The translations under genes and the position numbers were made by a program. Positions 6,871 to 13,325 of a stretch of 64,000 nucleotides of DNA are shown here, one piece after another. The stretch is from assembly GCA_964605725.1 (NCBI GenBank), contig CAZSDQ010000001.1, positions 12,090 to 76,089 on the forward strand, given 5' to 3'. The notes under the pieces were generated by a model. That model searched no databases and had not been told where the DNA came from. It saw nothing but the letters and a program-made list of their open reading frames with translations. The DNA comes from an uncultured Candidatus Saccharibacteria bacterium (GTDB lineage Bacteria > Patescibacteriota > WWE3 > UBA101185 > UBA10185). Position 1 is the first letter of the stretch, and each line of letters starts with the position of its first letter.

Positions 6871-6957
6871 GGGCGGGTGGCGGAATTGGTATACGCGCAA
6901 CGTTGAGGTCGTTGTGGGGTAAAACCCGTGCAGGTTCAACTCCTGTCTCGCCCACCA
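6871..6957 (+). tRNA. tRNA-Leu (anticodon GAG), long variable arm, CCA encoded
   Basis: Acceptor GGGCGGG/CTCGCCC, anticodon stem CAACG/CGTTG with loop TTGAGGT, T loop TTCAACT. Confidence 0.9.
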
Positions 6958-6968
6958 AAGTAATGTAA

Positions 6969-8804
6969 ATGAAAATCAAAAACATCAGATTATTTTTATT
7001 ACTTTCGATTGTCACACTTTCATTTGTAACCCCAGCAAAAGTATTTGCTGAAAGAATATCTGACTTTAATTCAGAAGTAGACATACGAAAAGATGGTACA
7101 GTTGAGATATCAGAGACAATAAAATATGACTTTGAATCAGCACAAAAACACGGTTTAGTTAGAGAGATAATCTATAAAAGAACAAATCAAGATAACAAAA
7201 CCTACATTATTGATATTGATGTTCTAAGTGTGACAGACGAAAACGGCAATCCTTATAATTTTTCTACATCTAAAATTGGAAGTTACATAGAATTAAAAAT
7301 TGGTGATGCAGATAAATTAATTTCAGGTCAGAAAACCTACATTATAAAATACAAACTTTCAGGTTCAATGACGTACTTTACTGACCACGATGAGTTTTAC
7401 TGGAATCTTGTTGGTTTTGATTGGCTAATACCTATTAGAAATTTCACTGCATCAATTTCAGTACCCGGATCTATCCGTCAAGACGATCTAAAATATATTT
7501 GTTACGAAGGGGTAAAGGACAGCACTTCCCAATCTTGTTTGATAAATTTTTCTGAAAACAAAATTCAAGTGTCTTCTAGTAAAAGTCTTAATCCAGGTGA
7601 AAATGTTACCGTCTCGTTGTCGTTTCCCAAAAATGCTATTGAAGTTCTTGAACCAAGAGAAGACAAGTCAGGAATTTTTTTACTAATATTCCAAGTATTT
7701 TTAGGAATATTGGCTTCACTTTGGTATCTTTTTTTACCCATCAAAATATTTTCAGATTATGTTAAACAAAAAAGTTTTTTAAAGAGTCACGAAAGAATAG
7801 TTTCCGCTTGGTTTGAACCTCCCCAATACGATGGCGGTAATGTGTTTTCACCCGCAGAAACAGGATTTATTGTTGATGGAGTAATAGATCATAAGGAGTT
7901 AACGGCTACCATAATACATTTAGCCCAAAGAGGATTTCTAAAAATCAAAGAGGACGATAAAAAGCACTTCTCGTTTGTGAGATTAAAAAGTATAGATTCT
8001 CCCGATCTTAGAAATTTTGAACAACAGGTTATGAGCGCAATCTTTAAAGAAGGGGTTTCAATTAAAGATCTTGATGAAAAATCACTTGAAAATTTAAACC
8101 AAGGATTACCTAATTTGGAAAAGTTTAACGATCTTATAAAAATCCCACAACTAGTTAATCTTGAAAACGAGATCAAGGGTACTCCTGTAGATGTGAAAGA
8201 GGAGGTAAGAGACACCGATTTGAAAAAATCGAAAACAATGTTTGGAAAAATCACTAAATTTAATAAATACGTGGAAGAAGAAGTAGTAGAAAAAGGTATG
8301 TTTGAAGATAAACCCACAGAAACTTATACAAAGAATATGACACTGTTCGCCCTAGGATTAACGACTTTAAACCCTTTGTTATCAATTGCAGGATTTGTTG
8401 CTGGAAGAAAATCAACAAAAAGAACATTAAAGGGAATTGAAAAGTATTCTGAAGCAATGTCTTTAATGAATTTTTTAAAATCTCAGGATGAACAAATAAA
8501 TTTTCAAGCAATGAACCAAATGTTTTTTGAAAAACTTTTACCTTATGCCGCTGCTTTTGGTGTTGAAAAACAATGGGCAAAGAGATTCAAGGATATTTAT
8601 TTAACAAAACCTGATTGGTATGAAGGAGAAAACTTTTCTAATAGCGTTTTTATTAGTTCGATGACTGGTAATATTGGCGGTTCTATGAAATCTTCTTACA
8701 GTTCTGGCATGTCTTCTACAAGATCTTCTTCAGGTTTTTCGTCCGGGTTTTCAGGAGGTTCTTCGGGAGGTGGCGGCGGTGGAGGTGGTGGAGGTAGCTG
8801 GTAA
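6969..8804 (+). CDS. DUF2207-family membrane protein with Gly/Ser-rich C-terminal tail
   Basis: Signal peptide, N-terminal beta-rich ectodomain, central and C-terminal TM helices. The tail SSGFSSGFSGGSSGGGGGGGGGGSW is typical of DUF2207 proteins. Confidence 0.7.
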   Translation: MKIKNIRLFLLLSIVTLSFVTPAKVFAERISDFNSEVDIRKDGTVEISETIKYDFESAQKHGLVREIIYKRTNQDNKTYIIDIDVLSVTDENGNPYNFSTSKIGSYIELKIGDADKLISGQKTYIIKYKLSGSMTYFTDHDEFYWNLVGFDWLIPIRNFTASISVPGSIRQDDLKYICYEGVKDSTSQSCLINFSENKIQVSSSKSLNPGENVTVSLSFPKNAIEVLEPREDKSGIFLLIFQVFLGILASLWYLFLPIKIFSDYVKQKSFLKSHERIVSAWFEPPQYDGGNVFSPAETGFIVDGVIDHKELTATIIHLAQRGFLKIKEDDKKHFSFVRLKSIDSPDLRNFEQQVMSAIFKEGVSIKDLDEKSLENLNQGLPNLEKFNDLIKIPQLVNLENEIKGTPVDVKEEVRDTDLKKSKTMFGKITKFNKYVEEEVVEKGMFEDKPTETYTKNMTLFALGLTTLNPLLSIAGFVAGRKSTKRTLKGIEKYSEAMSLMNFLKSQDEQINFQAMNQMFFEKLLPYAAAFGVEKQWAKRFKDIYLTKPDWYEGENFSNSVFISSMTGNIGGSMKSSYSSGMSSTRSSSGFSSGFSGGSSGGGGGGGGGGSW

Positions 8805-8838
8805 GTTATCTATTTTTTGTTTATAATGTTTTAGTTAT

Positions 8839-8913
8839 GCGACGGTAGTTCAGTGGTAGAATGTCTCCTTGCCAAGGAGAAGGTCGCCGGTTCGAATCCG
8901 GTCCGTCGCTCCA
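8839..8913 (+). tRNA. tRNA-Gly (anticodon GCC), CCA encoded
   Basis: Acceptor GCGACGG/CCGTCGC, anticodon stem TCTCC/GGAGA with loop TTGCCAA. Confidence 0.9.
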
Positions 8914-8963
8914 AGTTTTTGTTTTGAAAAGGTAACAAGTTAGGTTGTACGTTTTTTAGTTAT

Positions 8964-9038
8964 GCGACGGTAGTTCAGTGGTAGAATGTCTCCCTTCCAA
9001 GGAGAAGGTCGCCGGTTCGAATCCGGTCCGTCGCTCCA
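8964..9038 (+). tRNA. tRNA-Gly (anticodon UCC), CCA encoded
   Basis: Identical to the GCC gene except for the anticodon loop (CTTCCAA). Lies 125 nt downstream in tandem. Confidence 0.9.
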
Positions 9039-9093
9039 CTTTTTTATATAATTTTTTCCAAATAATTAAGGTATAATTGAGGCGTTACATACT

Positions 9094-9167
9094 GGCCTGG
9101 TCGCCAAGTGGTAAGGCAAGGGTCTGCAAAACCCTTATCGCGGGTTCGATTCCCGCCCAGGCCTCCA
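9094..9167 (+). tRNA. tRNA-Cys (anticodon GCA), CCA encoded
   Basis: Acceptor GGCCTGG/CCAGGCC, anticodon stem AGGGT/ACCCT with loop CTGCAAA, T loop TTCGATT. Confidence 0.9.
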
Positions 9168-9214
9168 TATTGCTAAAAGTGTGTAATAATTGGTAGAATT
9201 TAGTGTTTAAACAT

Positions 9215-9290
9215 GGGGCGGTAGCCAAGGTGGTCAAGGCACCGGTCTGAAAAACCGGCTATGTGGGTTCGACTCCCACCCTCCCCACCA
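9215..9290 (+). tRNA. tRNA-Phe (anticodon GAA), CCA encoded
   Basis: Anticodon stem CCGGT/ACCGG with loop CTGAAAA, T arm GTGGG-TTCGACT-CCCAC. The acceptor stem has one C-U mismatch. Confidence 0.8.
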
Positions 9291-9342
9291 AATCCTGATA
9301 TATGTTGTTGTAGCAACTAATTAATTATCTAATAAATAATTT

Positions 9343-9807
9343 TTACTTGACCAATTTCTTCTCCATGCAGACCATCTCTATATCCCCGAATAGTATATTT
9401 TCTAAGGTTTTAAACCCTAAACTAGTATAAAAACGCTTAGCATTTAAAGTAGCGTTTAAAGATATCTTATTTTTGTTATTTTTTATAAATTCCTTTTCAA
9501 TATATCTATACAATTTCTTACCGTAACCTTTTCCTTGATAATCCGGATCTATCTGTATTTGGTAAAGATTCTGATCTTCCAAATCATATTGAGCAAAGCC
9601 AATTATCTTATTGCTCTTTTTAATAATTATCCAAGAAGTGTTATCAAATTGAGATAGCACATTTTTTTCATTAATTTGCCCTAACCATGACTCAATAACT
9701 TTAGGATCGTAGATATCTGCATTAGTTTCTACAATGCATTTTTTATGTATTATTACGATGTTTTTTATATTCTCTTTTTTTGCTTGGGTGATTATTGAAT
9801 TATTCAT
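9343..9807 (-). CDS. GNAT-family N-acetyltransferase
   Basis: Acetyl-CoA binding motif A QIDPDYQGKGYGKKLYRYIE. About 150 aa, typical GNAT size. Confidence 0.8.
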   Translation of the reverse strand: MNNSIITQAKKENIKNIVIIHKKCIVETNADIYDPKVIESWLGQINEKNVLSQFDNTSWIIIKKSNKIIGFAQYDLEDQNLYQIQIDPDYQGKGYGKKLYRYIEKEFIKNNKNKISLNATLNAKRFYTSLGFKTLENILFGDIEMVCMEKKLVK

Positions 9808-9821
9808 TTATATTTAATGAT

Positions 9822-9873
9822 AAAAAAGATGGGGACGATATACATAGAATTAAAATTCATGTTTAAAGTCCCC
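9822..9873 (-). terminator. Hairpin plus T-run after the small peptide ORF (terminator/attenuator candidate)
   Basis: On the minus strand: GGGGAC ... GTCCCC outer stem with inner AACATGAATT/AATTCTATGT pairing, followed by ATCTTTTTT. Confidence 0.45.
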
Positions 9874-9890
9874 TCTGGTTTGGCCAATAA

Positions 9891-10001
9891 TTAATCACCG
9901 TGCTTTTTCTTGCAACCCCCATCTTGCTTACAACATCCAGGATGGGAATGTCCCGTAACACGAGTTTTATTCTTGGGCCAAGTTACTAACACTTTCTTCA
10001 T
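9891..10001 (-). CDS. 36-aa Cys/His/Lys-rich peptide, candidate RiPP precursor
   Basis: My own translation: MKKVLVTWPKNKTRVTGHSHPGCCKQDGGCKKKHGD*. SD AAGGAGAGGAGG then 7 nt then ATG. It starts 28 nt after the rSAM/SPASM stop on the same strand and is followed by a hairpin and T-run. Absent from the ORF track because of its size. Confidence 0.6.
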   Translation of the reverse strand: MKKVLVTWPKNKTRVTGHSHPGCCKQDGGCKKKHGD

Positions 10002-10029
10002 TATGGTACCTCCTCTCCTTCGTCATGAT

Positions 10030-11289
10030 TTAGAATCGGTCTATATCAACCTCATCTATAACGATTGGGGCAATTCTATCATCTGTAGCTATCAACAGCA
10101 ATAGCTCCGGTATTAGCGTGTGTTGAACTACACATGTGAAATTAGATTTTTTAAGTGGAAAACCATTTTTCCAAATACTAGCCATCGGACATCCACCATG
10201 GCATATCATTCTGAGATTGCAGTTTGAACAACCACCTAATTGATTCACAAAGTGTATATCTTCGAGTTTTTTCTTTTTGTTTAAATCAAATACCAAACCA
10301 TTTTCCACCTTACCGTAGATAAAAATATCAGCGTAAGGATCATTAGGTCTTGCAACTTCTACACAAGATGTAATTAGCCCGTGTGGTGTTAAAACTTTAT
10401 TACCGTTTGGCATTCCGCAGTAAAATTCATTGCTAGGCTCTGATAAAAAACCTGTATCTAACGTTATTTTATATCCTTTGTCTGCAATGTGTTTTATTAC
10501 TTCTATCATTGCTCTGGAAAACTTTATTGGATCAGGTTCCATAGACAAATCTGCTCTTGACACATCAGTAGATAGCGCAGGTTCAATTTTTATACTTTTT
10601 ACACCTAAAGAGCTTACTAAATCTACAGTAGATATAAGCGTATCTAATCCTTCTGACGTAACAATACACTGTACTATAACATCTACTCCTGATTGGATTA
10701 ATTTTTTGATGTTTTCAATTACTATACTTGAGGATCCACTACCATCAGCAAAAGGTCTTTGAATATTTTGCCTTACGCCATCAAATGATACACGAACACC
10801 AGCATTATTTTTAATTAGCCATTCACAAGCATTATTTCCGAAAGTTCCATTGCTAACAACGTTAACTTGGACTTCATCAAATAGTGTTTTTGCGTATTCT
10901 ACAATTTCCAAAACCCTTTCGAAGTATAATAAAGGTTCTCCGCCACCCACTAGAAATAAATCGAGATAATCTCCATCAGAGCTCTCTCGTACGGAATTAA
11001 GAGCTTCTTTTGCTGTTTCAAAGGAGATTAACTCCTTTGATTCTCCTCCTCGTGCGTAGCAATATTCACACCTGAGATTACAATCAAAAGTCACTATAAT
11101 TCCTAAGGAGGCGTTGTTCCTTGAGTGTTCATTTATATTTTCAATGGGAACAGAATAAGCCTCGAACATTAAACTTTCTAAATCCTCATCAGTAGCATCT
11201 AATCCAAATAAGATGTTTCCAGGGTAAACAACGGCAAAGTTTCTTATTCCGGGTAATTTAACAACACACACCTCATTTTTCTCAACCAT
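10030..11289 (-). CDS. Radical SAM / SPASM-domain peptide-modifying enzyme (maturase-like)
   Basis: CX3CX2C = CNLRCEYC at about aa 70. C-terminal 7-Cys SPASM pattern: C-x17-C (with G-x4-C), CSNCNLRMICHGGC (C-x2-C-x5-C-x3-C) and a trailing Cys in FTCVV. SD AAGGAGAGAGAA lies upstream. Confidence 0.9.
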   Translation of the reverse strand: MVEKNEVCVVKLPGIRNFAVVYPGNILFGLDATDEDLESLMFEAYSVPIENINEHSRNNASLGIIVTFDCNLRCEYCYARGGESKELISFETAKEALNSVRESSDGDYLDLFLVGGGEPLLYFERVLEIVEYAKTLFDEVQVNVVSNGTFGNNACEWLIKNNAGVRVSFDGVRQNIQRPFADGSGSSSIVIENIKKLIQSGVDVIVQCIVTSEGLDTLISTVDLVSSLGVKSIKIEPALSTDVSRADLSMEPDPIKFSRAMIEVIKHIADKGYKITLDTGFLSEPSNEFYCGMPNGNKVLTPHGLITSCVEVARPNDPYADIFIYGKVENGLVFDLNKKKKLEDIHFVNQLGGCSNCNLRMICHGGCPMASIWKNGFPLKKSNFTCVVQHTLIPELLLLIATDDRIAPIVIDEVDIDRF

Positions 11290-11354
11290 TTCTCTCTCCT
11301 TATTCTAAAGATAATTTTTTATTGGGCTGATTCTACATTATGCTTTAAATAGAA

Positions 11355-11855
11355 TCAAATCATAGTTACTAACCCAATGTTTTTAGGCCCCTCAAAATCA
11401 AAAGTTACTACCTTATATTTCACACCGTTAGATTCGTAGAATTTGGATATTTCACTAATCATTGCATCTCTTCCTAGTTTTTTATTTTGATTCCAAAAAT
11501 TACAACAAGGTATTAAAATTGTATTCGTCCCTAGAGCGGACTTAGCTACTTCAATTGTGGCTTCATCCGGATGTAAACCAATAACTAGATCGTAATAAGA
11601 TGCGTCTTCGGAGGAAAACTCTTCTTGTAAGTTATCAACTCCTAATAGCGGGTATCCTCTGGGGTCAACCACGGTAGATTTATAGTTATATTTTTTATTT
11701 AACACTCTCGATAACATACCTCTTCCTCCGGCAACATCAGCAATATATTCAATGTTTCTTCCAAATGTCTCAAAAACAAAACCAGCCACAACCTCAAATC
11801 TTTGAGGGTCCCCGTGAAATTTATGTCCTTTATATGTACCACCCTTAGTGCTCAT
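11355..11855 (-). CDS. Putative class I SAM-dependent methyltransferase-like protein
   Basis: Rossmann motif I-like IADVAGGRGMLS (DxGxGxG) followed by an acidic loop (VVDPR). 166 aa. The assignment rests on motifs only. Confidence 0.45.
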   Translation of the reverse strand: MSTKGGTYKGHKFHGDPQRFEVVAGFVFETFGRNIEYIADVAGGRGMLSRVLNKKYNYKSTVVDPRGYPLLGVDNLQEEFSSEDASYYDLVIGLHPDEATIEVAKSALGTNTILIPCCNFWNQNKKLGRDAMISEISKFYESNGVKYKVVTFDFEGPKNIGLVTMI

Positions 11856-11861
11856 AGAGGG

Positions 11862-11867
11862 ATTATA
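11862..11867 (-). promoter_or_regulatory. -10 box TATAAT (minus strand) 6 nt upstream of ATG 11855
   Basis: The minus strand reads TAGTATAATCCCTCTATG. No SD is present, which is leaderless geometry. Confidence 0.4.
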
Positions 11868-11900
11868 CTAGAGAAAATGTATTGCTAATAAATTATTAAG

Positions 11901-11933
11901 TTCCCAACAACCTCCCAGATAGTCCACCAAATT
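11901..11933 (+). repeat. 33-nt direct repeat, copy A (intergenic)
   Basis: TTCCCAACAACCTCCCAGATAGTCCACCAAATT. Matches copy B at 32/33 and copy C at 30/33. Confidence 0.85.
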
Positions 11934-11972
11934 ATTGGTATTGCTGTTATAACAATAAATAACATAACCTGA

Positions 11973-11978
11973 TATAAT
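11973..11978 (+). promoter_or_regulatory. -10 box TATAAT 6 nt upstream of ATG 11985
   Basis: GATATAATTTACCCATG with no SD, which is leaderless geometry. Confidence 0.4.
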
Positions 11979-11984
11979 TTACCC

Positions 11985-12539
11985 ATGAAAAAATGGAAAT
12001 TAAAATCATCAAAACCTGTATTTGAATCCAAATGGCTAACAATAAAATCAAATGATTATGAACTACCTAATGGAGATATAGCAAAAGAATACTACCATCT
12101 CTATCGTCCTGATTATGTTTTAGTGATTGCACATATGGATAATAATATTTTAATAGAAAAACAATATCGTAGAGGAGTTGATGATTTTGTTTATGAATTA
12201 CCCGCAGGATGGGTTGATAAAAATGAAACTCCAGAACAAGCTGCAATTAGAGAACTAAAAGAGGAAACAGGATATACTGGAGACGCTACTTTTTTAGGTA
12301 CTCTTTATCCTCAACCCGGTTTTAGTTCTATGCTTGCACATATTGTAGAAATAGAATTAAACGGGACTATTGAGGATAGAAATTTGGAAAAAGATGAAAA
12401 CATTGAATTTGAATTAATGAATATTGAAAAAGTGGATTCGATGATAAGCGAGAATAAATTTCAAGACATGGGTATGCTTGCTGCTCTAAATTTACTCAGA
12501 CAAAAAATTGGTAACAATTCTCAACAACCTCCCAGATAG
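11985..12539 (+). CDS. Nudix hydrolase (ADP-ribose pyrophosphatase-like)
   Basis: Nudix box GWVDKNETPEQAAIRELKEETGY (GX5EX7REUXEEXGU). The last 6 codons and the stop lie inside repeat copy B. Confidence 0.85.
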   Translation: MKKWKLKSSKPVFESKWLTIKSNDYELPNGDIAKEYYHLYRPDYVLVIAHMDNNILIEKQYRRGVDDFVYELPAGWVDKNETPEQAAIRELKEETGYTGDATFLGTLYPQPGFSSMLAHIVEIELNGTIEDRNLEKDENIEFELMNIEKVDSMISENKFQDMGMLAALNLLRQKIGNNSQQPPR

Positions 12540-12550: not shown

Positions 12551-12614
12551 TTTTATTTTATAATAACAGCCAAAAGTAAGTGTAATTTTTGGATAGTGGG
12601 TGGTAAAGTCGAAC

Positions 12615-12623
12615 TGGTATAAT
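12615..12623 (+). promoter_or_regulatory. Extended -10 box TGgTATAAT 6 nt upstream of ATG 12630
   Basis: CTGGTATAATAATTTTATG with no SD. Confidence 0.4.
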
Positions 12624-12629
12624 AATTTT

Positions 12630-13325
12630 ATGACATCTATCGCGGAAATACTTGGACCAGAAAAAGTTGAGGAGCTGACAAGCATACAGTTTGAAACCTC
12701 GGAATCAATACAACCGAAAAGAGATAAATATGAGCCGTATAAGGAAATACTTGAAACAAATAATGGGTTATGTGAACAAATTCAAAGAGTATTCTCACAT
12801 TCTCACATTGTTCCCGCAGTGCACATAACTTCTAGTGCATTTAAAAATGAAATGGGTGAAGTAACCTCTGGATTTTTAGACAATATAGCAGCAAATGGTT
12901 TTAGAGCAAAAGATACGAATGTTGGCGTTTTTATGAAAAGAGAGGGATTACGAGAACCAGCTATACCAGTAAATTTTGTGGAGAGACCAGAGAAATTTTT
13001 AAGAGAGCTTGAGACAATTATAAGACACTATTATCATCATGGAGTACGAACTAATAAGGCATTATTGAGAGATAGTAGAAATATAGGCACAGGTGTTCCC
13101 GTGATGTTATTAATAGATACAAGTAACATAGATTTAGAGCGAGGTAGTGATTACGAGGATCACTATAAACTTGGTACGAGTGCTTCTATCAGTAGGATTG
13201 TTGGAGAAATAGACTTGGAGGGAATTGGAACTGAAATTAGAGAAAAATTACCAGAAATCGCTACTAAATTTTTAGAATTAACTGAGTCTTACCTAGATAA
13301 AACTTCCCAACATCCTCCCAGATAG
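12630..13325 (+). CDS. Hypothetical protein
   Basis: I prefer ATG 12630 (MTSIAEILGPEK...) to the track's GTG 12600 because of the -10 box geometry. I recognise no motif. The last 6 codons and the stop lie inside repeat copy C (..SQHPPR*). Confidence 0.6.
   Translation: MTSIAEILGPEKVEELTSIQFETSESIQPKRDKYEPYKEILETNNGLCEQIQRVFSHSHIVPAVHITSSAFKNEMGEVTSGFLDNIAANGFRAKDTNVGVFMKREGLREPAIPVNFVERPEKFLRELETIIRHYYHHGVRTNKALLRDSRNIGTGVPVMLLIDTSNIDLERGSDYEDHYKLGTSASISRIVGEIDLEGIGTEIREKLPEIATKFLELTESYLDKTSQHPPR

What the first reader, a model, noticed from the sequence alone, without database searches (positions are those of the whole stretch)
9343..11855. Radical SAM/SPASM enzyme followed by an unannotated 36-aa Cys/His/Lys-rich peptide gene: candidate new RiPP locus
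The gene order on the minus strand is as follows. First is a putative SAM-dependent methyltransferase (11855-11355). Next is a radical SAM enzyme (11289-10030) with CNLRCEYC and a complete 7-Cys SPASM signature: C-x17-C containing G-x4-C, then CSNCNLRMICHGGC, then a later Cys. After only 28 nt comes a 36-codon ORF that is not in the supplied ORF track (10001-9891, MKKVLVTWPKNKTRVTGHSHPGCCKQDGGCKKKHGD). It has one of the strongest Shine-Dalgarno sequences I saw in the window (AAGGAGAGGAGG, 7 nt, ATG). A hairpin and T-run follow directly after its stop (9873-9822). A GNAT acetyltransferase gene comes last (9807-9343). A SPASM maturase next to a short Cys-rich peptide gene with a terminal hairpin is the canonical layout of rSAM-modified RiPPs such as sactipeptides, ranthipeptides/SCIFF, streptide and darobactin. 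The roughly 60 aa preceding the CX3CX2C motif could be a peptide-recognition (RRE-like) domain. I do not recognise the peptide as belonging to any named precursor family. The methyltransferase and GNAT would be plausible tailoring enzymes. No exporter or leader protease is adjacent.
Basis: partly seen in the sequence, partly recalled or inferred. Interest (0 to 1): 0.85.

Follow-up and report, generated by a model that had tools for sequence, protein, structure and literature searches.

The report
Radical SAM enzyme with conserved Cys-peptide
This is a real, previously unnamed pair of genes found in tiny uncultured (Patescibacteria/CPR) bacteria: a radical-SAM enzyme and the 36-residue cysteine-containing peptide it most likely cross-links, which makes it a new family of a well-known kind of modified-peptide system.

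Summary
The 36-codon ORF is a real gene. It sits next to orthologous radical SAM genes in 14 distinct loci (enzyme 39-100% identical). It always has a GGAGG ribosome-binding site, and codon differences fall mostly on third positions (461, against 116 and 55).

The peptide family has a leader, MKK[IV]x[IV]x[W/F], and a core, [SA]HPGCCxQxGGCxKKHG. Deeper relatives carry a short form that ends at ...HPGCCxQ and lies upstream of the enzyme.

The enzyme reaches no NCBIfam cutoff; the best hit is the PapB ranthipeptide maturase at 128 bits against 340. Its seven auxiliary-cluster Cys have the same spacing as in CteB, three for the first cluster and four for the second. A confident AF2 model is closest to CteB.

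The most likely function is a Cys-to-carbon thioether cross-link in the HPGCC core. The chemistry is inferred, not shown.

The 'methyltransferase' is not conserved with the system. The GNAT is conserved in one clade only and lies behind a conserved terminator. In the rest of the family a TlyA-type rRNA 2'-O-methyltransferase is the linked neighbour.

Verdict: a new family within a known kind, of moderate interest.

The parts
10030..11289 (-). Radical SAM / SPASM-type peptide maturase (419 aa). Radical SAM cluster: C70, C74, C77. By CteB spacing, auxiliary cluster 1 = C291, C309, C367 and auxiliary cluster 2 = C354, C357, C363, C386. An N-terminal beta-sheet domain spans residues ~8-55.
   Evidence: - PF04055 at 64 bits, above the 29.5 cutoff.
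- Best NCBIfam hit is PapB at 128 bits, below the 340 cutoff.
- All ten Cys are invariant in 42 orthologues.
- AF2 model has pLDDT 93.4.
- Foldseek top hits are CteB 5WHY/5WGG, E = 2e-19.
- Same Cys spacing as the CteB AC1/AC2 ligands listed in PMC10177961.
11293..11302 (-). Shine-Dalgarno-like AAGGAGAGAG ahead of the radical SAM start codon.
   Evidence: Read directly from the sequence.
10009..10020 (-). Shine-Dalgarno AAGGAGAGGAGG, 7 nt before the ATG of the peptide gene.
   Evidence: Sequence. A GGAGG-type motif sits 6-9 nt before the peptide start in all 12 loci examined.
9891..10001 (-). Precursor peptide gene (36 aa). Leader: MKKVLVTW.... Core: SHPGCCKQDGGCKKKHG.
   Evidence: - Conserved immediately next to the orthologous enzyme in 14 distinct loci.
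- Codon-position differences are 116/55/461, with 369 synonymous against 134 non-synonymous codon differences.
- 17 called homologues with the HPGCC core, P0121-P0137; P0138 is a weak partial match.
- 14 genuine hits among 1.84 billion cluster representatives, plus one repeat artefact.
- No Pfam or NCBIfam family.
9820..9876 (-). Hairpin (GAGGGGAC...GUCCCCAUC) followed by a U-run. It is the probable intrinsic terminator or attenuator that ends the enzyme-peptide transcript.
   Evidence: Fold of the 9812-9892 region at -18.8 kcal/mol, z = -3.66. A GC hairpin plus U-run is present at the same place in L081, L083, L084, L166, L168 and L170.
9343..9807 (-). GNAT acetyltransferase (154 aa). It is a conserved neighbour in one clade only, so it is a possible accessory gene rather than a demonstrated part of the system.
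   Evidence: PF13673 at 66 bits and PF00583 at 55 bits. Orthologues 48-63% identical follow the peptide in L081, L083, L084, L166 and L168. These loci form one clade in the enzyme tree. The RimI equivalog is not reached: 41 bits against 86.

Best explanation
The 419-aa protein and the 36-aa peptide are a RiPP-type maturase and substrate pair. They are transcribed as a two-gene unit: a Shine-Dalgarno site before each gene and a terminator after the peptide.

Proposed mechanism (all inferred):
1. The peptide's conserved N-terminal strand, MKK[IV]x[IV]x[W/F], docks on the enzyme's small N-terminal beta-sheet domain.
2. The C-terminal core, [SA]HPGCC..., enters the barrel.
3. A core Cys thiolate (C23 or C24, perhaps also C30) binds the open iron of auxiliary cluster 1, which has only three protein Cys ligands, as in CteB, PapB and Tte1186.
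4. The 5'-deoxyadenosyl radical abstracts a hydrogen from a nearby residue.
5. An intramolecular Cys-S-to-carbon thioether forms, of the sactionine or ranthionine type, with a loss of 2 Da per link.

Shown here: the gene is real, it is tightly and widely linked to the enzyme, and the enzyme has the cluster layout and fold of thioether-forming maturases. Inferred: that the peptide is the substrate, the binding mode, and the type and position of the cross-link.

The biological role of the product is unknown. No protease or exporter lies within about 2.5 kb of the pair in the window. The pair sits among housekeeping genes. This points to an intracellular, SCIFF-like role rather than a secreted bacteriocin.
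For: Linkage seen from the enzyme side:
- The long-form peptide lies 12-70 nt after the enzyme in 14 distinct loci, with enzyme identity of 39-100% to the window.

Linkage seen from the peptide side:
- All 9 places shown, which carry two peptide clusters (P0125, P0128), have a 417-428-aa radical SAM gene directly upstream.

The peptide is a real coding gene:
- Third-position bias of 461 against 116 and 55, with 369 synonymous against 134 non-synonymous codon differences in the core block.

Leader/core behaviour typical of RiPPs:
- The leader MKKxxxx[W/F] persists where the core has diverged (L167, L096).
- A short form ending ...HPGCCxQ lies upstream of deeper relatives (L093, L098, L099, P0149, P0150).

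The enzyme resembles thioether-forming maturases:
- Its best family matches are thioether-forming or Cys-rich-peptide maturases: PapB 128 bits, nif11 99, SCIFF 95, CcpM 79.
- The closest solved sequence and fold is CteB.
- It has seven invariant auxiliary Cys with the same spacing as CteB AC1 (C344, C362, C413) and AC2 (C400, C403, C409, C432). PapB and Tte1186 bind the substrate (seleno)cysteine at an Fe-S cluster; for Tte1186 this was assigned to AC1 (PMC10177961).
- An N-terminal extension domain is present ahead of the radical SAM core. From my own knowledge, anSME lacks such a domain; this was not checked here.
Against: - No biochemical data exist.
- SPASM enzymes also catalyse C-C and C-O cross-links, epimerisation and Cys oxidation, so thioether formation is a homology-based guess.
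- No family cutoff is reached: PapB 128 against 340, SCIFF 95 against 425.
- The attractive Cys-X3-Asp (PapB-type) reading fails. Position 27 is D, N, G or K across the family.
- Beyond G-C-C almost nothing in the core is strictly invariant. Q26 can be K or E. H20 is E in L094.
- L167 and L096 have cores with a single Cys.
- L097 shows no peptide at all.
- The N-terminal domain lacks two of the three helices of a canonical RRE and gives no PqqD hit.
- Enzyme-peptide docking could not be modelled.
Confidence: 0.62

Rival explanations
1. The pair is a maturase and its substrate, but the chemistry is different. The enzyme would install something other than a thioether in the HPGCC core. Candidates are a C-C or C-N cross-link involving His20, Cys oxidation to a formylglycine- or thioaldehyde-like residue as anSME does, or epimerisation.
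For: - anSME is the second-best structural match: 4K36, E = 7.5e-18, TM-score normalised to the target 0.78.
- The enzyme is far below every equivalog cutoff.
- The acceptor residue cannot be identified from conservation.
- His three residues before the first Cys is nearly invariant.
Against: - The 3+4 auxiliary Cys layout matches CteB/PapB/Tte1186. From my own knowledge, anSME clusters are fully Cys-ligated; this was not checked here.
- The peptide has no C/S-x-P/A-x-R sulfatase motif.
- The top sequence hits are thioether-forming enzymes.
Confidence: 0.2
2. The modified, Lys-rich peptide acts on the ribosome, either as a toxin or antibiotic or as an endogenous ribosome-associated factor. The linked TlyA-type rRNA 2'-O-methyltransferase would then be its functional partner: a self-protection or target-conditioning gene. 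In the window's clade the GNAT would play that role.
For: - A TlyA-family gene (NF049952, 194 bits) lies next to the enzyme in about 13 distinct loci across the whole family tree.
- The linkage survives rearrangements: downstream, overlapping the enzyme stop in L098, on the opposite strand in L094/L171, and upstream in L097.
- In L088 and L169 no terminator separates the peptide from TlyA.
- In L178 the enzyme-peptide-TlyA trio is flanked by an IS110 transposase and a serine recombinase.
- From my own knowledge, not tested here: rRNA methyltransferases and acetyltransferases are classic self-resistance genes for ribosome-targeting peptides. TlyA methylation also governs sensitivity to capreomycin.
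Against: - From my own knowledge, TlyA is a common housekeeping gene. Linkage could reflect inherited gene order in small genomes packed with translation genes.
- It is unknown whether the adjacent TlyA is a second copy.
- Short-form peptides are not basic; L093 is acidic.
- No exporter is linked.
- The window itself has no TlyA within 64 kb.
- The window has a terminator before the GNAT.
Confidence: 0.1
3. The small protein is not a substrate. It would instead be a metal-binding or Fe-S-related partner, using H20, C23, C24, C30 and H34 as a Zn or Fe site, or another small basic protein that is merely co-expressed with the enzyme.
For: The H-x2-C-C-x5-C-x3-H pattern is conserved in the long form. 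The whole peptide is unusually conserved for a RiPP precursor.
Against: - The short forms end at CCxQ and keep only H, C and C.
- L167 and L096 keep the leader but only one Cys. This is leader/core behaviour and does not fit a fixed metal site.
- Related paralogous radical SAM genes in the same genomes each have their own different Cys peptide (L171, L172, L101, L104).
Confidence: 0.05
4. The 36-codon ORF is a chance open frame in an intergenic spacer.
For: It is very short and has no database family.
Against: - Amino-acid conservation holds across loci whose DNA has diverged, with differences concentrated at third codon positions.
- Every locus has a conserved Shine-Dalgarno site and stop context.
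- The profile finds 14 genuine peptides (one other hit is a repeat artefact) among 1.84 billion representatives; every hit whose genomic context could be traced to a fetched locus lies beside the enzyme.
Confidence: 0.01

Closest known systems
SCIFF peptide / ScfB-CteB system of Clostridia (ranthipeptide; CteB structures 5WGG, 5WHY)
   Same: - A radical SAM enzyme with an N-terminal peptide-binding extension.
- The identical 3+4 auxiliary Cys spacing.
- The closest solved sequence (E = 1e-15) and fold (E = 2e-19).
- A short, highly conserved Cys peptide encoded beside the enzyme, in a lineage-wide, housekeeping-like context without protease or exporter.
   Different: - Only about 19% identity to CteB, and 95 bits against the 425 cutoff of TIGR03974.
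- The peptide has 3 Cys (2 in the short form), not 6, and no similarity to SCIFF.
- The N-terminal domain is about 40 residues shorter than in CteB (alignment offset).
- Found in Patescibacteria, not Firmicutes.
PapB / freyrasin ranthipeptide maturase (NF047865)
   Same: It is the best-scoring curated family (128 bits, E = 4.6e-37, aligned over nearly the full model). The window peptide happens to contain C23-x3-D27, the PapB motif.
   Different: The score is far below the 340-bit cutoff. The Asp is replaced by N, G or K in orthologous peptides, so the Cys-X3-Asp rule does not hold. There is a single short core instead of six repeats.
Anaerobic sulfatase-maturating enzyme (anSME, 4K36-4K39)
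   Same: The same radical SAM plus SPASM fold (TM-score normalised to the target 0.78).
   Different: - 64 bits against the 349 cutoff.
- This enzyme has an extra N-terminal domain and seven auxiliary Cys. From my own knowledge, anSME has eight and lacks that domain.
- No sulfatase gene or motif is nearby.
Sactipeptide maturases (AlbA, SkfB, ThnB)
   Same: The same general logic: a leader-guided Cys-to-carbon thioether made by a radical SAM enzyme with auxiliary clusters. SkfB is the second-best PDB sequence hit (E = 1.6e-8).
   Different: The similarity is weak and limited to the radical SAM core. There is no bacteriocin-type context of immunity gene, ABC exporter or protease.

Membership tests
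Radical SAM superfamily (PF04055) | CX3CX2C motif and an HMM score above the gathering threshold | tested here: met
   C70-x3-C74-x2-C77 is invariant in 42 orthologues. PF04055 scores 64.1 bits against 29.5.
SPASM-domain radical SAM subfamily | C-terminal CX9-15GX4C ... CX2CX5CX3C ... C motif that binds two auxiliary [4Fe-4S] clusters | tested here: met
   C291-x17-C309 (with G304-x4-C309), C354-x2-C357-x5-C363-x3-C367 and C386 are all invariant. The spacing is identical to the CteB ligands, and the fold matches CteB and anSME.
SPASM-domain radical SAM subfamily | Hit to the Pfam SPASM model PF13186 | tested here: not met
   PF13186 is not reported at E <= 0.1 for the window protein. It is also absent from the precomputed domains of all close orthologues.
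PapB family ranthipeptide maturase (NF047865) | HMM score at or above the curated cutoff of 340 bits | tested here: not met
   128 bits. The deeper relative L098 scores 90 bits.
PapB family ranthipeptide maturase (NF047865) | Substrate with conserved Cys-X3-Asp motifs | tested here: not met
   C23-x3-D27 exists in the window, but position 27 is D, N, G or K across the family.
SCIFF maturase ScfB (TIGR03974) with SCIFF peptide | HMM score at or above 425 bits, and an adjacent six-Cys-in-45 peptide | tested here: not met
   95.4 bits. The peptide hits no NCBIfam model and has 3 Cys.
Anaerobic sulfatase maturase (TIGR03942) | HMM score at or above 349 bits | tested here: not met
   64.1 bits.
RiPP recognition element (PqqD-like wHTH) | A domain of about 85-90 aa with a three-strand sheet plus three helices, and a PqqD-type HMM hit | tested here: inconclusive
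   The model shows strands 8-12, 17-22 and 25-29, then helix 34-46 and a short helix 52-55. That is a sheet with one long and one short helix. There is no PqqD hit at E <= 0.1. Leader binding could not be modelled.
RiPP precursor/maturase pair (generic) | A short gene adjacent to the maturase, with a conserved leader and a separately evolving core | tested here: met
   Adjacent in 14 distinct loci, plus variants. The leader is kept where the core diverges.
RiPP precursor/maturase pair (generic) | The peptide is actually modified by the enzyme | not testable with these tools
   This needs co-expression and mass spectrometry.
Sactipeptide or ranthipeptide (chemical class) | Cys sulfur linked to the alpha-carbon (sacti) or to a beta- or gamma-carbon (ranthi) of an acceptor residue | not testable with these tools
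   Supported only by homology of the enzyme.
GNAT acetyltransferase (PF13673/PF00583) | HMM score above the gathering threshold | tested here: met
   66.3 and 54.6 bits. The RimI equivalog is not reached: 41.3 bits against 86.4.
Class I SAM-dependent methyltransferase (upstream 166-aa ORF) | HMM score above the gathering threshold | tested here: not met
   Methyltransf_32 scores 18.1 bits against 27 with no significant stretch. The only NCBIfam hit has E = 0.046. No homologue lies next to any orthologous enzyme.

The most novel reading that the evidence does not exclude
The enzyme-peptide pair makes a small cross-linked, Lys-rich peptide whose target or partner is the ribosome. The ancestral neighbour TlyA is an rRNA 2'-O-methyltransferase. 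It would condition or protect the producer's own ribosome. In the window's clade the GNAT would take that role. That would be a ribosome-directed RiPP module carried by ultra-small episymbiotic bacteria, and in places it appears mobile, flanked by a transposase and a recombinase.
Probability: 0.1. Interest if true: 0.8.

Novelty: new member of a known kind. Interest (0 to 1): 0.5.

Why it matters
Patescibacteria/CPR genomes are usually reported as almost free of biosynthetic gene clusters. One MAG survey found none in its Patescibacteria bins (PMC11613949). This finding is a conserved maturase-peptide pair restricted to these organisms, with one archaeal relative. The enzyme is below all curated family cutoffs, and the peptide is absent from Pfam and NCBIfam.

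The minimal conserved core (HPGCC, with natural short and long forms) makes it a compact substrate for working out what this branch of SPASM enzymes does.

The old, rearrangement-resistant linkage to TlyA gives a testable lead to the physiological role of a SCIFF-like 'housekeeping' RiPP. From my own knowledge, that role is still unclear even for SCIFF itself.

Tried and rejected
1. The genome-contig scan with the enzyme returned only Firmicutes SCIFF-type loci at about 26% identity.
2. The metagenome scan hit the same limit, but about a dozen true family members came through.
It was repeated with a 51-aa extended ORF placed first.
4. I built fused enzyme-linker-peptide chains with a paired alignment to model docking.
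5. The PapB-type Cys-X3-Asp cross-link was considered and rejected, because the Asp is not conserved.
6. The idea that the peptide is a small basic ribosomal protein was considered and set aside, because short-form relatives are neutral or acidic.
7. The methyltransferase as a tailoring enzyme was rejected for lack of conservation.
8. Rfam found no riboswitch or other RNA element in 8700-12100 apart from four tRNAs.
9. Literature searches found no description of this family. They covered the motif strings and CPR/Patescibacteria combined with ranthipeptide, SPASM, radical SAM or TlyA. The library is incomplete, so this is not proof of absence.
10. P0139, the top hit of the representative search, is a translated tandem repeat that contains CHPGCCRQ by chance.


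Full report
**1. What is in the window.**
The minus strand carries four ORFs:
- a 166-aa ORF at 11855-11355
- a 419-aa radical SAM gene at 11289-10030
- a 36-codon ORF at 10001-9891 (MKKVLVTWPKNKTRVTGHSHPGCCKQDGGCKKKHGD)
- a 154-aa GNAT gene at 9807-9343

The gap between the enzyme and the small ORF is 28 nt. AAGGAGAGGAGG lies 7 nt before the ATG of the small ORF. After its stop codon, GAGGGGAC...GUCCCCAUC pairs and is followed by UUUUUU. The region folds at -18.8 kcal/mol (z = -3.66; 0 of 200 shuffles as good). The consensus terminator scan did not list it because the loop exceeds 8 nt. Four tRNA genes (Gly, Gly, Cys, Phe) lie just beyond the GNAT on the other strand.

**2. The enzyme.**
- Pfam finds Radical_SAM (64 bits) and Fer4_12, but not the SPASM model.
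- NCBIfam lists 82 families and none reaches its cutoff. The best are PapB ranthipeptide maturase (128 bits, cutoff 340), nif11-peptide maturase (99.5), SCIFF maturase (95.4, cutoff 425) and CcpM (79). anSME scores 64 against 349.
- About 90 orthologue clusters at 37-72% identity exist. Those that carry a name come from Patescibacteria or candidate division WWE3. The window protein itself is MBP7785716.1.
- In an alignment of 42 orthologues, C70/C74/C77 and seven C-terminal Cys (C291, C309, C354, C357, C363, C367, C386) are invariant, and there is no eighth.
- Their spacing is the same as that of the CteB ligands. AC1 in CteB is C344, C362 and C413. AC2 is C400, C403, C409 and C432. These are listed in PMC10177961, which also shows that the substrate (seleno)cysteine of PapB and Tte1186 binds an Fe-S cluster, assigned to AC1 for Tte1186.
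- By homology, AC1 here is C291/C309/C367 with an open iron site, and AC2 is C354/C357/C363/C386.
- CteB is the closest solved sequence (5WGG, E = 1e-15).
- An AF2 model built on the 42-sequence alignment is confident (pLDDT 93.4, pTM 0.91). Its best Foldseek matches are CteB (E = 2e-19), then anSME, ChlB and SuiB.
- Ahead of the barrel the model has three strands (8-12, 17-22, 25-29), a long helix (34-46) and a short one (52-55). This is smaller than a canonical RRE, and no PqqD-type hit is found. I call it RRE-like but unproven.

**3. The small ORF is a real, conserved gene.**
Directly after orthologous enzymes I found:
- MKKIRVSWPKDKTRVTGHSHPGCCTQDGGCGKKHGK (L081, enzyme 72% identical)
- MKKVAIRWTKRQKRIVGRSHPGCCAQDGGCTKKHGSAD (L083, 54%)
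- MKRVVVTWPKKMGKKRIVGHAHPGCCTKDGGCGKKHGG (L084, 50%)

Further members follow enzymes that are 39-46% identical: L088, L089, L091, L092, L166, L168, L169, L170, L173 and L178. With the window, that makes 14 distinct loci.

In the 17-codon core block, pairwise differences fall 116/55/461 on codon positions 1/2/3. There are 369 synonymous and 134 non-synonymous codon differences. Every locus has a GGAGG-type site 6-9 nt before the start.

A profile search returned 18 called hits, 17 of them with the HPGCC core. An exhaustive HMMER search of 1.84 billion cluster representatives found only 15 hits, one of which is a repeat artefact. The family is small, and gene callers mostly miss it. None of the peptides matches Pfam or NCBIfam.

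Starting from the peptide side, all nine places shown for P0125 and P0128 have the enzyme directly upstream.

**4. Anatomy of the peptide family.**
The consensus is MKK[IV]x[IV]x[W/F], then 4-16 variable residues, then [IVL]x[GSA]x[SA]HPGCCxQ[D/N/G/K]GGC[G/K/P/T]KKHG. Three observations fit a leader/core organisation:
- Deeper relatives of the enzyme (31-38% identical: L093, L098, L099; also P0149 and P0150) have a short form. It ends exactly at ...G[AS][AS]H[PN]GCCxQ-stop and lies upstream of the enzyme. The minimal conserved core is therefore HPGCC.
- In L167 and L096 the leader (MKKVTVTF, MKKILIKW) is kept while the core is replaced (...GRQKGECKH...STAKSECSEDG...).
- Paralogous radical SAM genes in the same regions each have their own different Cys-containing peptide (L171, L172, L101, L104).

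The window's C23-x3-D27 looks like the PapB Cys-X3-Asp motif. Position 27 varies between D, N, G and K, so that specific reading is rejected.

**5. Neighbours.**
The upstream 166-aa 'methyltransferase' is a sub-threshold match (18 bits against 27). It has no counterpart next to any orthologue. The upstream genes there are a cupin, a DUF6624 protein, an M28 peptidase-like protein, or unrelated ORFs. It is not part of the system.

The GNAT is a real GNAT. It follows the peptide in the window, L081, L083, L084, L166 and L168, at 48-63% identity. These six loci form one clade in a neighbour-joining tree of the enzymes. In all six, a GC-rich hairpin with a U-run separates the peptide from the GNAT. 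The basic transcription unit is therefore enzyme plus peptide, and the GNAT would be reached at most by read-through.

Elsewhere in the tree the linked neighbour is a TlyA-family rRNA 2'-O-methyltransferase (S4 + FtsJ domains; NF049952 at 194 bits, cutoff 250). Its position varies:
- directly downstream in L088, L089, L091, L093, L099, L100, L102, L169, L170 and L178
- overlapping the enzyme's stop in L098
- on the opposite strand in L094 and L171
- upstream in L097

This linkage spans the deepest splits of the family and survives rearrangements. It appears ancestral, with the GNAT clade derived from it.

No C39 protease or dedicated exporter is adjacent in the window. Its flanks are a DUF2207 membrane protein, NUDIX, PIG-L and an alpha/beta hydrolase. 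Across the fetched loci only L169 (an ABC transporter and an M28 peptidase-like gene) and L168 (an MFS transporter) have such genes within a few genes of the pair. Many flanks are translation genes such as ThrRS, IF3, L35, L20, TruB, ArgRS and SmpB. Some loci are flanked by transposases or a recombinase.

**6. Most likely mechanism.**
I read the pair as a RiPP-type maturase and its precursor. The leader strand docks on the N-terminal sheet. A core Cys thiolate binds the open iron of auxiliary cluster 1. The 5'-deoxyadenosyl radical abstracts a hydrogen. A Cys-to-carbon thioether closes a small ring in or next to HPGCC. The long form may gain a second link through C30.

Shown: a real gene, tight two-way linkage, leader/core behaviour, a CteB-like cluster layout and a CteB-like fold.

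Inferred: the substrate relationship, the binding mode, the chemistry and the site.

Rivals are set out separately:
- other radical chemistry on the same peptide (0.2)
- a ribosome-linked role with TlyA or the GNAT as partner (0.1)
- a metal-binding small protein that is not a substrate (0.05)
- a spurious ORF (0.01)

**7. Comparison and novelty.**
Functionally and structurally the closest system is SCIFF/CteB. PapB is the closest curated family. Membership of each named family was tested and not met.

No paper in the held library describes the motif or a radical SAM RiPP of this kind in CPR bacteria. One MAG study reports no BGCs at all in its Patescibacteria bins.

I classify the locus as a new member (a new enzyme subfamily plus a new precursor family) of a known kind, the radical SAM/SPASM-modified Cys peptides. 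It is of moderate interest, raised somewhat by the CPR restriction, the natural short and long cores, and the old TlyA linkage.

Noticed in passing
L171 256-6993; L094 and L095 (same arrangement): Three radical SAM genes sit around one TlyA gene. Each has its own short Cys-containing ORF: ...FAQCCKPGPCSPKQ; a variant of the family studied here; and ...CAEVLCYPATDGCCIKKGAS. This looks like a small array of paralogous maturase-peptide pairs that share a 'CC' theme. The middle peptide of L171 looks frameshifted relative to L094.
   Followed up: partly
L172 3802-5266: A 35%-identical homologue of the enzyme lies on an archaeal contig (MCM with intein, TBP, and a diphthamide synthase-like gene). 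Upstream of it is a different Cys/Asp-rich peptide, MSKEYVVLSVSMGRIPSYARDCEWQCDYDCDCATDCPSEGCTCDED.
   Followed up: no
L173-L177 and L178-L181: In these metagenomic contigs the enzyme-peptide pair, or the enzyme-peptide-TlyA trio, is flanked by transposase genes (DDE_Tnp_1, DDE_3, IS110) and a serine recombinase. This suggests the module can lie in mobile or rearranging regions.
   Followed up: partly
P0148 (112 aa, from the representative search): This is a chimeric ORF. The first ~90 residues of the radical SAM enzyme, up to just after the CX3CX2C motif, are fused in frame to the peptide core (...GKSHPGCCKKDGGCGKKHGD). It is probably a deletion derivative or an assembly artefact.
   Followed up: no
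L101 1668-2144; L104 5144-5390: Outgroup radical SAM genes (about 31% identical) are followed by longer, very Cys-rich ORFs, e.g. ...ATCGCEIDPGCNSYNCKGCGVQCPCNPDKPEKPNPKGDKKGHQTFFK. This is a separate candidate precursor family.
   Followed up: no
window 8839-9290 and 6871-6957: A tRNA cluster (Gly-GCC, Gly-TCC, Cys-GCA, Phe-GAA) on the plus strand converges on the end of the GNAT gene. A tRNA-Leu(GAG) lies just upstream of the DUF2207 gene.
   Followed up: yes
window 6969-8804: A DUF2207 membrane protein (611 aa) ends in a long Ser/Gly tail (…SSGFSSGFSGGSSGGGGGGGGGGSW).
   Followed up: no
window 12600-13325: A 241-aa ORF has no Pfam family at E <= 0.001. It lies between a NUDIX hydrolase gene and a PIG-L deacetylase gene.
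   Followed up: no
L167 12923-13248: The contig whose peptide core has diverged (MKKVTVTFHDDKRRGRQKGECKH) carries a second radical SAM gene about 5.7 kb downstream. Unlike the enzyme studied here, that gene does hit the Pfam SPASM model.
   Followed up: no
P0139 (1325 aa): The top hit of the peptide profile search is the translation of a long tandem repeat that contains CHPGCCRQ 22 times. It is unrelated and is a chance low-complexity match.
   Followed up: yes
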